Assembly: GCF_056746865.1 (NCBI RefSeq)
Contig: NZ_JBWKMP010000002.1
Reading direction: 5' to 3' (one strand)
Origin: a plasmid
Length of the DNA stretch: 64,000 nt
Shown piece after piece: positions 18,001 through 21,000 of this stretch. Numbering within the stretch: position 1 is the first letter of the stretch; the number at the start of each line of letters is the position of its first letter. Made by a program: the position numbers.

Positions 18001-21000
18001 TTTTTGTATACGACGTGGCCATGATGTGAGGTTTTCCTCTTATCAATTTTTAAAGTATGCATGATTCTAAGAAATACAGATGCCATCTGCATAACTTCAT
18101 TCGTCGACAATTTTAGAAGTACAGAACGGTTTGAGCCCCAGTCATAATCTTTTTTGGCGTTCCTCGGAGCGACGTGCAATGTAAGATAATAATTATCAAT
18201 CTCATTTGAAAAAGGTGAAGGTTTTGATGAGCTAACATCTTCATTGTTCATCTCAATGACAAGTGCTGCATCCTGACCAAAAGCTTTTACATTATGGTTT
18301 TTAAGAGAGAAGTCTGAAGTTGCCATATAAAAAGTCACTTTTGATAAAACCACATACCACCTAATGATTCATCATCGGCAAGATGCTTGAAATTTGAGAG
18401 TGTATATCCTGTTTTGGTTTCAGAAATCACCATGCTGTAAGATGCCGTATGTACAAGGCGAGAATTGTTTAGATCAAGATCATCACAAAAACCAGGGCTT
18501 TTGACGGGGTCAGCCTTTTCAACAAAAGTTACTTTTGAAGCGATGCCGTTGATCACGATTTTCTCGTTATCAGCAATTTTAATGTTTAAAGAAGGCGAGC
18601 TTTTATCACATGGCAGGAAGAGTGATGTCTTTTTAAATGTGTTTCCAGTGAAGTCCAAAAGGTCAGGTTTAACCGGAACATTGTTTAGGATTTTATAAAC
18701 TCCAGCAAATGCACATATCACAACAAAACCAGATAAAACATATCTAATCTTAGACTTCATCCCCCAGTTCCTCTCCTAAAAGTTTTAACGCACTTACGCA
18801 CATAAGCCTCAACTGATACAGTAAGTTATCAGCGGTTATTCCACCAACGAAGGTAACTGTACGTCGTATTGATGCTCCGCCAGGCTCGCACTGGATATGG
18901 CCGATACCAGAATCACGGAGGAAGTCATTTTCTGCACTTACAAGGTCTGACTCTACAGGTGGAATGATAACTTCAATGAGTATTGTATCAACTGGGGCCC
19001 ACTCCCAATCGAACTTAAGAGAGGAAATTGGGGATATAGAAACAAGAAGCTCATCAATATTAAAAATTACGGGTTTTATTCCCATAACCTCAGACTGAAT
19101 GAAGCGGCTTTCTAACCATAACTACCGGAAACTCTGAAATAGTCAGAACTCCGATTAACTGGTCTCGGCGTAAACCATGTATTAGTGAGTTGCGAGATAG
19201 CATTCGATCAGCCTTTATTATAATAATCAAACATTTGGGACAAGAACAAAAGGGATTACAGAAACGAAGATTCTACATGAACATCGTTGTCAGTGACCTT
19301 AGGTCCATCGGGTATAAGGGTATCAAAAAATCCTTACATAACCATTAAAGCACAGAGACTTTATAAGTAAAATAATAATTAAGTACCAGATTTATTAAGA
19401 TAATTCTTAGGTTTTTTACAAATTTAGGAAAAATCCGCACTTCCTGTAACAGCACCCAAATTAACCTAAAATACCGTTTCATTAACAGTAATTTTACATA
19501 CCCAGGTGAAGCCTGAAATTATTATAACAAAAAAAAGGCCAGCAAGTATGCTGGCTTTCCTGGTAAGACAAGTTGGAACTCAGAAGTCGATTGTACTGTC
19601 TCTCACCTATCTTGCCAAAGTTGCCAGTCGCTTGTTTGCCTTAGCTTTAGATTTTATGCTTATGGAGGCGGTTTGATTTTCATCCGATACTTTTTCTAGC
19701 ACTGGCACCACAGCGGAAATGGACTTTTCTTTTGAAATTTTGGATGCATCTGAAGAAAGTGGGCTTTCAGATGGTATAGAGGTATCGCTTCCCTCATTTT
19801 CAATCTTCACACCAAAGCAGGCATGTTCCTTTTGTACAAGGAAGGTTTCTTTTACAGAAACAGAATCCTGCTTTGAATTATCTAATTGTAGAGGTGTTAA
19901 ATACTCCTTAAACTTTTGATCTAAGACATTCTCTAGCAATACATTAATAGGAGGCTTAGGTTCAGTATCTATAGTATTTCCATCATTCAGAAACCTATTA
20001 AGATCTGCAAGTGTTAATCTTTCGTTTAAACCATTTATAAAATTTGCCAAGTCAGGAAATAAATTATTCAATACCAACCCGGTACTAATAGCCGACCTAA
20101 TTAAATCCAGTTGGTCACCCCTATGAGAAAGTTCTGTTTTTTTCAAGAAACTATAAACATAGGGTGCTTTTCTTTCGGATATCCAGAAAGACCGGATCTG
20201 AATCCGGTCGTTATCTGCCTTATTTGAGATAGGGTTTTTAGCCATGTTCTAGCTCATTATTCTGAATAAATAGTATCAGCAATTGCCAAAGATAATGCGA
20301 ACTGCGGATTGTCTACCATGATAACTTTAGCCGTTTCAAAATGTTTACGAATAGCTGTTTCGATGAGATATGAACCTCCCCCAACAAGGAAAACATTATG
20401 AGGCCTCTCTTCGACTTGTGTAACCGCTCTGATTACTTTACTTTGCAACTTCTGTACCGCAGAGTTTACCGCATCAAAAACACCGTCACGCTTGTCCTCT
20501 GCAACCTTCAAAGCTGATTTATCATGACGATTATCAACAAGATGATGAATGTAAGCATTACTCGTATTCAGTTTCTCAGATTCAAGATACCTGCTGATCT
20601 CATCGTAAACAATAGAACAACCAATACGGTCAAAACCTTTTACTTTCGAAATCTGTTCTAATTGCCCAGTAATACTTGCAACATCAAGAGTAGTACCACC
20701 AAGATCAATTACCAAACTTGATTCAAATGAAGCAATATCCTCAATTTCATCTGCCCGGGTCACAGCTGGTAAAGATTCAGGGAAAACAGTCACAGACAAA
20801 ACGTTGAAAGAATAGCGTTTACCGTCAAGATAACGCTCAACTGGTTTCATCAGGTTATCTTTTTTTCTCTGAATATTTTCAATATTCGTTTCCCCTAAAG
20901 CAGTATAGAACTGGCTAAGAGGTAAAGTAACAAAGAGGTGAACATCCTGAGGAACTAAACCAGAAGCATGAAGTGCATGGTGAACATTTAACCGGCTAAT

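What the first reader, a model, noticed from the sequence alone, without database searches (positions are those of the whole stretch)
19085..19607. AT-rich control region upstream of the htd-like three-gene set
A ~500-bp strongly AT-rich, A/T-tract-rich segment separates the parR terminator from the three small ORFs preceding the giant Ig-like protein gene. In IncHI plasmids transfer is thermoregulated through H-NS/Hha acting on AT-rich promoters (recalled). This is a plausible silencing target controlling the downstream transfer genes.
Basis: inference. Interest (0 to 1): 0.25.

Follow-up and report, generated by a model that had tools for sequence, protein, structure and literature searches.

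The report
Promoter spacer upstream of IncHI2 htdA
This is the ordinary non-coding spacer between the parR partition gene and the htdA transfer-repressor gene of an IncHI2 resistance plasmid; it holds the parR terminator and most likely the htdA promoter, and data from the related plasmid R27 argue against temperature-dependent silencing here.

Summary
The window is IncHI2 (R478-like) plasmid backbone. The genes run on the minus strand in the order parM, parR-like, spacer, htdA, htdF, htdK, rsp.

The finding is real but mis-bounded. Positions 19086-19203 are the first 39 codons of htdA, which is 150 aa in more than 1100 relatives. A 1-bp insertion at 19114, private to this window, hides them. 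The true spacer is 19204-19606 (403 bp).

It is moderately AT-rich: 66% AT, 4th percentile of GC, with a 200-bp core at the 0.4th percentile. It is not enriched in A/T tracts.

From parR towards htdA it contains:
- the parR terminator (19555-19530);
- a 130-bp core (19437-19308) that is 75-95% identical to IncHI1;
- an unconserved linker;
- a conserved ribosome-binding block.

No Rfam family, structured RNA, repeat array or conserved ORF was found.

Best reading: this is the terminator plus the promoter and 5' leader of the htdA-htdF-htdK transcript. In R27 that transcript is a primary transcript. Its levels are about equal at 25 and 37 °C (htdA 738 vs 1069), so silencing at 37 °C is not supported. 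H-NS binding remains possible but untested.

The region is already known in kind and of low interest.

The parts
19607..20245 (-). parR-like gene (212 aa), the second gene of the parM/parR partition module; it bounds the spacer upstream
   Evidence: ORF. It follows a ParM with Pfam StbA_N and ParM_N hits at E 1e-66 and 1e-60. Identical proteins are annotated in relatives. The R27 homologue R0013 is called 'ParR-like protein'.
19530..19555 (-). Intrinsic terminator of the parM-parR transcript (7-bp GC-rich stem, 4-nt loop, T8)
   Evidence: Terminator scan, inverted repeat I13, fold z = -1.9. IncHI1 has a different hairpin plus T-run in the equivalent place.
19204..19606 (-). True parR-htdA intergenic spacer (403 bp, GC 0.340)
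   Evidence: Annotation of near-identical plasmids, composition. Present at 95% identity or more in 1125 PLSDB records.
19308..19437 (-). Conserved AT-rich core (about 71% AT over 19298-19445), 75-95% identical to IncHI1. Candidate promoter/operator of the htdA-htdF-htdK transcript. Weak sigma-70-like candidates are TTAATA(19398-19393)-N18-TATTTT(19374-19369) and a -10-like TA(T/A)AAA at 19365-19360.
   Evidence: Alignments and sliding identity. The distant blastn hits to IncHI1-type plasmids fall only in about 19298-19435. The predicted curvature peak is centred at 19396. The core has no copy elsewhere in the window and no RNA structure signal. The promoter hexamers are my reading of the sequence; the PWM scan found no strong conserved promoter.
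19240..19300 (-). Unconserved linker between the core and the ribosome-binding block; presumed 5' leader
   Evidence: 5-20% column identity to IncHI1. The core-to-ATG distance is nevertheless kept: about 185 nt here and about 175 nt in IncHI1.
19204..19237 (-). Conserved proximal block TGATTATTATAATAAAGGCTGA. It holds a perfect TATAAT (19222-19217), the Shine-Dalgarno AAAGG (19216-19212) and, on the plus strand, an exact IHF-consensus match AATCAAACATTTG (19225-19237).
   Evidence: 80-100% identity to IncHI1, IHF pattern scan, hexamer positions.
19086..19203 (-). First 39 codons of htdA as found in the whole family. Here the frame is broken after codon 30 by an extra base at 19114, with a C/T difference at 19105.
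   Evidence: None of 1126 PLSDB records and none of 275 records in complete E. coli genomes share the variant. The N-terminus is conserved at protein level.
18750..19085 (-). Remainder of htdA (the 111-aa ORF seen in the window); transfer repressor / anti-activator of TrhR-TrhY
   Evidence: Function taken from R27 literature (PMC7366339, PMC9410318).
17772..18760 (-). htdF (18335-18760) and htdK (17772-18353), co-transcribed with htdA in R27
   Evidence: annotated htdF / plasmid transfer protein. R27 transcript #2 spans htdA-htdK.
13348..17652 (-). rsp, the large Ig-like secreted protein required for IncHI conjugation; it has its own promoter in R27
   Evidence: Annotation, weak Big_3_3 Pfam hit, PMC6764697, PMC7366339.

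Best explanation
The segment is the parR-htdA intergenic spacer of an IncHI2 conjugative plasmid, homologous to the R0013-R0012 spacer of R27.

Reading on the minus strand, it first ends the parM-parR partition transcript at an intrinsic terminator (19555-19530). It then starts a new transcript for htdA-htdF-htdK, the proximal part of the 'AN' transfer operon. That transcript starts from a promoter inside, or just downstream of, the conserved 130-bp AT-rich core (19437-19308). A leader of roughly 100-170 nt follows and ends in a conserved ribosome-binding block (19237-19204).

Its job is to set the level of HtdA, the anti-activator that holds TrhR/TrhY-driven transfer-gene expression down.

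Steps shown:
- gene order;
- the terminator;
- the conservation pattern;
- the absence of RNA-family, repeat or ORF signals.

Steps taken from R27 experiments:
- a primary (triphosphate) htdA-htdK transcript exists, with its 5' end at least 48 nt upstream of the ATG;
- expression is about equal at 25 and 37 °C;
- expression rises 3-5 fold in an htdA mutant at 25 °C.

Steps inferred:
- the promoter lies in the core between about 19400 and 19360;
- the same behaviour holds in IncHI2.
For: - Synteny and identity with IncHI2 and IncHI1 plasmids.
- Terminator.
- Phylogenetic footprint. The core 19437-19308 is 75-95% identical to IncHI1 and the proximal block 19237-19204 is 80-100% identical. The flanks are 5-50% identical, and about 35-55% of htdA codons carry synonymous changes.
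- R27 transcript #2 (htdA-htdK) is the only 5'-triphosphate species found. Its nested primer R2-htdA maps 28-47 nt upstream of the ATG, so the start site lies further upstream, towards the core, and the conserved TATAAT beside the ribosome-binding site cannot be its promoter.
- R27 array values for htdA, htdF and htdK at 25 vs 37 °C and in the htdA::IS10 mutant.
- A lineage of 96 plasmids, including pAPEC-O1-R, carries an IS5-family element at 19406-19411. This detaches everything upstream, yet both candidate promoters stay joined to htdA.
- No Rfam hit at gathering score, no fold signal, no repeat array, no ORF conserved with IncHI1.
Against: - No strong sigma-70 promoter is conserved in the core. 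The best consensus matches in the spacer lie elsewhere: TTGGCA-17-TACAAT at 19618-19590, upstream of the terminator, and TTGTCC-15-TATAAT at 19243-19217.
- The exact R27 start site is given only in a figure that I could not read.
- All expression data come from IncHI1, not IncHI2.
[quoted passage not shown] Temperature effects on read-through from this promoter are therefore not fully excluded.
Confidence: 0.72

Rival explanations
1. The AT-rich spacer is a nucleation or spreading site for H-NS/Hha. These proteins silence the promoter at 37 °C and release it at 25-30 °C, so that the downstream transfer genes become thermoregulated.
For: - AT 66-69% and TpA density in the top 2.2% of the window; the predicted curvature peak at 19396 is near the 1st percentile.
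- IncHI transfer is thermoregulated through H-NS/Hha (PMC7366339 and PMC2686267 citing Forns 2005).
- Lang et al. 2007 name htdA among H-NS-sensitive genes.
Against: - In R27, htdA, htdF, htdK and R0009 are unresponsive to temperature and slightly higher at 37 °C.
- The H-NS target named in the literature is trhR.
- htdA encodes the repressor, so silencing it at 37 °C would work against repression of transfer.
- rsp and trhP have internal promoters.
- No TCGATAAATT-like site with 2 mismatches or fewer; sites with 3 mismatches or fewer are at background level.
- A/T tracts are not enriched.
- About 15 other equally AT-rich troughs exist in the window.
- AT-richness of tra upstream regions here runs opposite to R27 thermoregulation.
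Confidence: 0.13
2. The conserved core is not mainly a promoter. It is a cis-acting architectural or partition-related DNA site, for example an extra ParR or nucleoid-protein (IHF) binding site downstream of parR, or the template of a small regulatory RNA.
For: - The core is conserved at about coding level although non-coding.
- It lies next to the partition module.
- An exact IHF consensus sits at 19225-19237 and is kept or nearly kept in relatives.
- No convincing sigma-70 promoter is conserved in the core.
Against: - No direct or inverted repeat array of the kind that type II centromeres have; the repeat-rich region is upstream of parM.
- The Klebsiella IncHI-like plasmids keep htdA-htdF-htdK-rsp with a long upstream spacer but have no parMR beside it.
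- No Rfam match at gathering score and fold z-scores of +0.5 and -0.75 on the two strands.
- No second copy in the window.
- The IHF match lies outside the core.
Confidence: 0.1
3. The spacer has no function beyond separating two transcription units; its AT-richness is only the usual composition of intergenic DNA.
For: - Neighbouring spacers are equally or more AT-rich.
- An IS5-family element sits in the spacer in 96 plasmids, and four other plasmids carry other elements, apparently tolerated.
Against: - 130 bp are kept at 75-95% identity between IncHI2 and IncHI1 while adjacent spacer DNA has diverged beyond alignment.
- htdA needs a promoter downstream of the parR terminator, and R27 has a primary transcript starting here.
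Confidence: 0.05

Closest known systems
R27 (IncHI1) R0013(parR-like)-R0012(htdA) spacer, upstream region of the AN transfer operon (Alonso 2005; Gibert et al. 2013-2020)
   Same: Same gene order: parM, parR, spacer, htdA, htdF, htdK, rsp. HtdA is 85% identical. A terminator follows parR. A shared AT-rich core of about 130 bp sits 175-185 nt before the ATG, and the ribosome-binding block is near-identical.
   Different: The IncHI2 spacer is shorter (403 vs 565 bp). Outside the two conserved blocks the sequence cannot be aligned, and the terminator hairpins are different sequences. No transcript mapping or expression data exist for the IncHI2 version in the literature I could search.
H-NS/Hha-silenced, thermoregulated promoters of horizontally acquired genes (trhR of R27, proU, bgl, virF)
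   Same: AT-rich, TpA-rich, moderately curved DNA upstream of a plasmid regulatory gene.
   Different: No high-affinity H-NS motif. The homologous R27 genes are not thermoregulated. Binding has not been tested.
IS5 insertions upstream of H-NS-repressed operons (bgl, flhDC in E. coli; from general knowledge)
   Same: An IS5-family element sits in an AT-rich regulatory region about 200 bp upstream of a regulatory gene and is inherited by a successful lineage of 96 plasmids.
   Different: No evidence that it changes htdA expression or conjugation. It looks like one inherited event rather than recurrent selection.

Membership tests
IncHI AN-operon upstream spacer (homologue of R27 R0013-R0012 intergenic region) | Lies between the parR-like gene and htdA, followed by htdF, htdK and rsp on the same strand | tested here: met
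   ORFs and annotations of near-identical and IncHI1 plasmids.
IncHI AN-operon upstream spacer (homologue of R27 R0013-R0012 intergenic region) | Detectable sequence homology of the non-coding DNA to the IncHI1 spacer | tested here: met
   Core 19437-19308 is 75-95% identical and block 19237-19204 is 80-100% identical; blastn E-values of 5e-18 to 1e-19.
IncHI AN-operon upstream spacer (homologue of R27 R0013-R0012 intergenic region) | Contains the start of a primary htdA-htdK transcript | not testable with these tools
   Shown for R27 by circular-RNA mapping after polyphosphatase treatment. The nested primer maps 28-47 nt upstream of the ATG. Only weak sigma-70 candidates are found here.
H-NS/Hha thermoregulated silenced promoter | AT content clearly above the surrounding DNA | tested here: met
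   GC 0.340 (4th percentile) for the spacer and 0.275 for the lowest 200 bp (0.4th percentile). However, about 15 comparable troughs exist in 64 kb.
H-NS/Hha thermoregulated silenced promoter | High-affinity H-NS nucleation motif (TCGATAAATT-like; Lang et al. 2007, consensus written from memory) | tested here: not met
   No site with 2 mismatches or fewer in 19204-19606. There are 5 sites with 3 mismatches or fewer, against a window mean of 4.5.
H-NS/Hha thermoregulated silenced promoter | Intrinsic DNA curvature / phased A-tracts | tested here: inconclusive
   In a wedge-model trajectory (Bolshoy parameters recalled from memory) the minimum end-to-end/contour ratio is 0.848 at 19396, about the 1st percentile, but it is not among the 12 most curved loci. 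A/T tracts of 4 or more bases are at background level.
H-NS/Hha thermoregulated silenced promoter | Downstream genes repressed at 37 °C and derepressed at 25 °C or in hns/hha mutants | not testable with these tools
   For the R27 homologue the published arrays show no thermoregulation: htdA -1.45, htdF -1.75, htdK -1.49, R0009 -1.30 fold at 25 vs 37 °C. No IncHI2 data were found.
H-NS/Hha thermoregulated silenced promoter | Physical binding of H-NS/Hha | not testable with these tools
   Forns 2005 and Doyle 2007 are not held in the library. The only indirect mention is that htdA is H-NS-sensitive.
Intrinsic (Rho-independent) terminator | GC-rich hairpin immediately followed by a T-run, downstream of a stop codon on the coding strand | tested here: met
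   7-bp stem (5 GC pairs), 4-nt loop and T8, lying 52-77 nt after the parR stop.
Type II partition centromere (parC-like) | Array of short direct or inverted repeats bound by ParR | tested here: not met
   No repeat family in 19204-19606. Inverted repeats cluster upstream of parM at 21300-21600 instead.
Any Rfam RNA family | Match at the family's gathering score | tested here: not met
   The best hit is rnk_pseudo at 27.3 bits against a gathering score of 55, over the terminator.

The most novel reading that the evidence does not exclude
The 130-bp conserved AT-rich core is a dedicated dosage switch for the transfer anti-activator HtdA, for example a site where H-NS/Hha, IHF or the TrhR/TrhY-HtdA circuit feeds back on htdA transcription. 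The IS5-family insertion at its 5' edge, inherited by 96 plasmids of the pAPEC-O1-R type, has rewired that switch and changed the conjugation rate of a successful IncHI2 sub-lineage.
Probability: 0.12. Interest if true: 0.4.

Novelty: already known. Interest (0 to 1): 0.14.

Why it matters
HtdA sets the conjugation rate of IncHI plasmids, which are major carriers of mcr-1, mcr-9, blaNDM and other resistance genes. An htdA null mutation raises R27 transfer by more than 10,000-fold at 25 °C. Whatever controls htdA transcription therefore controls how fast these plasmids spread.

The practical results of this check are four:
- the spacer is correctly 19204-19606;
- its functionally constrained part is a 130-bp core plus the ribosome-binding block;
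- the published R27 data argue against the attractive 'H-NS thermoswitch' reading for this promoter;
- AT-richness alone does not predict which IncHI tra promoters are thermoregulated.

None of this is surprising to a specialist.

Tried and rejected
1. IS-insertion hot spot. 100 of 1126 IncHI2 records have the 403-bp spacer interrupted, against 1/1127 for a coding control and 6/1124 for the equally AT-rich parM-trhO spacer. A junction probe then showed that 96 records share one identical IS5-family junction, which roughly accounts for the 100 together with four other mapped single events. I rejected a recurrent hot spot. At least five independent events here is about the same as the six interrupted records or fewer in the control spacer.

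2. The htdA frameshift as a selected 'derepressed' mutation. Considered unlikely, because it is one of nine scattered 1-bp indels relative to a 99.9%-identical plasmid. Of the five in the 13.6-kb comparison, most change the length of a short base run, and they coincide with split parB-like and hypothetical ORFs. This looks like sequence error.

3. Small ORFs in the spacer. The 45-aa ORF on the minus strand (19482-19345) and the open frames on the plus strand are not conserved as proteins in IncHI1.

4. Structured RNA or sRNA. No Rfam hit at gathering score and no fold z-score signal except at the terminator.

5. Shared operator with other tra promoters. The core has no significant copy elsewhere in the 64-kb window.

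6. CRP site (suggested by the reported cAMP control of R27 conjugation). Nothing better than 3 mismatches.

7. The long-range inverted repeat 19214-19227 / 19518-19531. It is AT-only and not conserved in IncHI1, so I treated it as chance.

8. Wider footprinting. The Klebsiella IncHI-like spacers are too diverged to align. A genome-collection scan with the most conserved 21-mer returned only one more IncHI2 plasmid and chance hits.

9. NCBIfam and Pfam gave no family for HtdA, HtdF, HtdK or ParR-like.

10. Forns 2005 could not be read.
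Full report
**What the window is.**

A 1.6-kb query around the finding matches 1128 plasmid records in PLSDB, nearly all IncHI2 (R478-like), at 95-100% identity. In the near-identical plasmid pSTM6-275 the annotated genes all lie on the window's minus strand. In order they are:
- parM (window 20257-21294);
- a ParR-like gene (19607-20245);
- a gap;
- 'hdtA', H transfer determinant A;
- two small genes (htdF, htdK);
- rsp, the large Ig-like conjugation protein.

The same order, with a long gap before htdA, is found in IncHI1 (pHCM1/R27-type), in Citrobacter IncHI1B-type plasmids and in Klebsiella IncHI-like plasmids.

**Checking the observation.**

The segment is real but mis-bounded.

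In relatives htdA is 150 aa and starts at the ATG at window 19203. The window shows only a 111-aa ORF from 19085 because it carries one extra base at 19114 and a C/T difference at 19105. None of 1126 PLSDB records and none of 275 records from complete E. coli genomes share this variant.

The 39 N-terminal residues are genuinely coding:
- they are conserved in IncHI1;
- they align even with Klebsiella homologues of 31% identity;
- 8 of 23 amino-acid-identical codons carry synonymous changes, as in the rest of the gene;
- the internal Met that starts the 111-aa ORF is not conserved in IncHI1.

The frameshift is one of nine scattered 1-bp indels relative to pSTM6-275. Of the five in the 13.6-kb comparison, most change the length of a short base run. 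They coincide with places where the window's ORFs for a ParB-family gene and two hypothetical genes are split or shortened. I therefore regard it as probable sequence error, not biology.

The true spacer is 19204-19606 (403 bp). Composition:

| Segment | GC | Percentile in window |
|---|---|---|
| 19085-19607, as given (523 bp) | 0.361 | 10.6th |
| True spacer 19204-19606 | 0.340 | 4.4th |
| Terminator to ATG (334 bp) | 0.311 | 1.4th |
| Lowest 200 bp (19334-19533) | 0.275 | 0.4th |

The window as a whole has GC 0.422. About 15 other troughs are as low as the 523-bp segment.

A/T tracts of 4 or more bases are at background level: 8, against a mean of 8.2. Nearby spacers are as AT-rich or more so: parM-trhO 0.311 and htdK-rsp 0.303.

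**Anatomy, read on the minus strand from parR towards htdA.**

1. An intrinsic terminator, GCCAGCA-TACT-TGCTGGC followed by T8, at 19555-19530. It is the only part of the region with any fold signal (z = -1.9).
2. About 90 bp with no similarity to IncHI1.
3. A conserved core, 19437-19308. It is 75-95% identical to IncHI1 and to a Citrobacter lineage, peaking at 95% over 19387-19368. With distant blastn, IncHI1-type plasmids match the spacer only within about 19298-19435.
4. An unconserved 60-bp linker, 19300-19240 (5-20% identity).
5. A conserved block, 19237-19204: TGATTATTATAATAAAGGCTGA. It holds a perfect TATAAT, the Shine-Dalgarno sequence and, on the other strand, an exact IHF-consensus match at 19225-19237.

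The distance from the core to the ATG is kept (about 185 nt here, about 175 nt in IncHI1) although the linker sequence is not. About 35-55% of htdA codons carry synonymous differences between the two groups and the spacer flanks cannot be aligned. The core is therefore under purifying selection.

**What the core is not.**

- No Rfam family reaches its gathering score.
- Neither strand folds better than shuffled sequence (z = +0.5 and -0.75).
- There is no direct or inverted repeat array such as a partition centromere would have; such repeats lie upstream of parM.
- Open frames across it are not conserved as protein in IncHI1.
- It has no second copy in the 64-kb window.

**Evidence from R27.**

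Gibert et al. 2020 (PMC7366339) describe the AN operon (htdA to trhN). [quoted passage not shown]

Their nested primer R2-htdA maps 28-47 nt upstream of the htdA ATG in the IncHI1 sequence. The start site must therefore lie further upstream, and the conserved TATAAT beside the ribosome-binding site cannot be that promoter. This points to the core.

Within the core I see only weak sigma-70-like candidates:
- TTAATA-N18-TATTTT at 19398-19369;
- a -10-like TA(T/A)AAA at 19365-19360, kept in all four lineages.

A PWM scan finds no strong conserved promoter, so the exact promoter remains an inference.

A natural experiment agrees with this placement. 96 plasmids, including pAPEC-O1-R, carry an IS5-family element at 19406-19411. 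It separates everything upstream from htdA but leaves both candidates attached.

**Testing the H-NS thermoregulation idea.**

In silico:
- TpA density is high (0.099 vs 0.066, top 2.2%).
- A wedge-model curvature calculation puts a moderate peak at 19396, about the 1st percentile but not among the 12 most curved loci. The parameters were recalled from Bolshoy et al. 1991.
- There is no match with 2 mismatches or fewer to TCGATAAATT, the H-NS consensus as I recall it from Lang et al., and no enrichment of looser matches.

From the literature:
[quoted passage not shown] Values at 25 vs 37 °C are 738 vs 1069, 1045 vs 1826, 2719 vs 4053 and 300 vs 390.
- The AC, H, F and R operons, by contrast, are induced 3-20 fold at 25 °C.
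- H-NS is reported to act at 37 °C on trhR.
- HtdA is itself the brake on transfer. An htdA::IS10 mutant conjugates more than 10^4-fold better at 25 °C but is still blocked at 37 °C. Silencing htdA at 37 °C would therefore not explain thermosensitive transfer.
- rsp and trhP have their own promoters.

Within this window, the upstream region of the AC operon (strongly thermoregulated in R27) has GC 0.396. The spacer serving the thermo-insensitive Z operon has GC 0.311. AT-richness does not predict thermoregulation here.

Points in favour of some H-NS involvement:
- Lang et al. 2007 list htdA among H-NS-sensitive genes.
- Hüttener et al. [quoted passage not shown]
- In the htdA mutant the htdA-htdK signals rise 2.6-4.8 fold at 25 °C, which shows that the promoter is regulated by something.

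**Insertions in relatives.**

100 of 1126 IncHI2 records have the spacer interrupted, against 1/1127 for a coding control and 6/1124 for the parM-trhO spacer. This first looked like a hot spot. However, 96 records share one identical IS5-family junction.

The other events mapped are:

| Element | Position | Location |
|---|---|---|
| IS3-family | 19457-62 | spacer |
| ISApl1 | 19526-28 | spacer |
| ISApl1 | 19530/31 | spacer |
| gamma-mobile-trio element | 19549 | spacer |
| IS903-like | 19606-15 | parR stop |
| about 776-bp insert with 9-bp overlap, IS1-sized, not identified | 19648-56 | parR |
| ISKpn26 | 19921-25 | parR |

This fits ordinary IS traffic into non-essential AT-rich DNA plus one successful lineage.

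**Verdict.**

The finding is the known kind of region it appears to be: the spacer that terminates the partition operon and launches the htdA-htdF-htdK transcript.

The label 'control region' is right. The boundaries, the description as strongly AT-rich and A/T-tract-rich, and the thermoregulated-silencing mechanism are not well supported.

The one feature worth remembering is the 130-bp conserved core, whose binding partners are unknown.

Noticed in passing
window 19105-19114 (htdA codon ~30): A private 1-bp insertion plus an adjacent substitution frameshift the 150-aa transfer repressor gene htdA. They are absent from 1126 PLSDB records and from 275 records in complete E. coli genomes. If real, the plasmid should be strongly derepressed for transfer, like R27 htdA::IS10. 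It is more likely a sequence error, because similar 1-bp indels occur at 23115, 24215, 24646, 25020, 37785, 46779, 49298 and 49482. The four between 23115 and 25020 coincide with split parB-like and hypothetical ORFs.
   Followed up: partly
window 19406-19411 (L009, L010, L017 = pAPEC-O1-R): An IS5-family (ISKpn26-like) element is inserted at the 5' edge of the conserved core in 96 PLSDB plasmids from Salmonella, E. coli, Enterobacter, Klebsiella, Shigella and E. albertii. All share one identical junction, so this is a single inherited event in a successful IncHI2 sub-lineage. Its effect on htdA expression or conjugation is unknown.
   Followed up: partly
window 19457-62, 19526-28, 19530/31, 19549, 19606-15, 19648-56, 19921-25 (loci L002, L003, L012, L011, L015/L022, L016, L004): Other single insertions occur in relatives. 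They are an IS3-family element, ISApl1 twice, a gamma-mobile-trio (GmtY) element at the parR terminator, an IS903-like element at the parR stop codon, an unidentified insert of about 776 bp with a 9-bp overlap (IS1-sized) in parR, and ISKpn26 in parR.
   Followed up: partly
window 19590-19618 (minus strand): The best sigma-70 consensus match in the area is TTGGCA-17-TACAAT (10/12). It overlaps the parR stop codon and lies about 30 nt before the parR terminator hairpin, so it would give a roughly 50-nt RNA if active. I did not see it conserved in IncHI1 (absent from the scan's top hits; low alignment identity), and a weak Rfam 'rnk leader' hit (27 bits, below threshold) covers the same stretch.
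   Followed up: partly
window 27061-29603: A tandem array of about 10.4 copies of a 249-bp unit (68% matches) lies between the TraC-family gene (trhC homologue) and parA. The copy structure differs from pSTM6-275.
   Followed up: no
window 21295-21657: The divergent parM / trhO (Z operon) spacer is the most AT-rich tra-associated spacer (GC 0.311, TpA 0.124). It carries several inverted repeats (for example 21311-21326 / 21345-21360) and is a likely parC centromere and promoter region.
   Followed up: no
window 40075-41222: The 1.15-kb spacer between the RepB-family replication gene and the trhA pilin gene (upstream of the AC operon) has GC 0.396. It is less AT-rich than the htdA spacer although its R27 counterpart is the most strongly thermoregulated tra operon.
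   Followed up: partly
window 44487, 51536, 46773: These are the strongest predicted intrinsic DNA curvature peaks in the window (end-to-end/contour 0.72-0.80), well above the htdA spacer. The first lies among hypothetical genes beyond Tra2.
   Followed up: no
window 17772-18353 (htdK): A weak Pfam hit to the Whirly single-stranded-DNA-binding fold (E 1.3e-4, 22.3 bits, just under the cut-off of 23).
   Followed up: no
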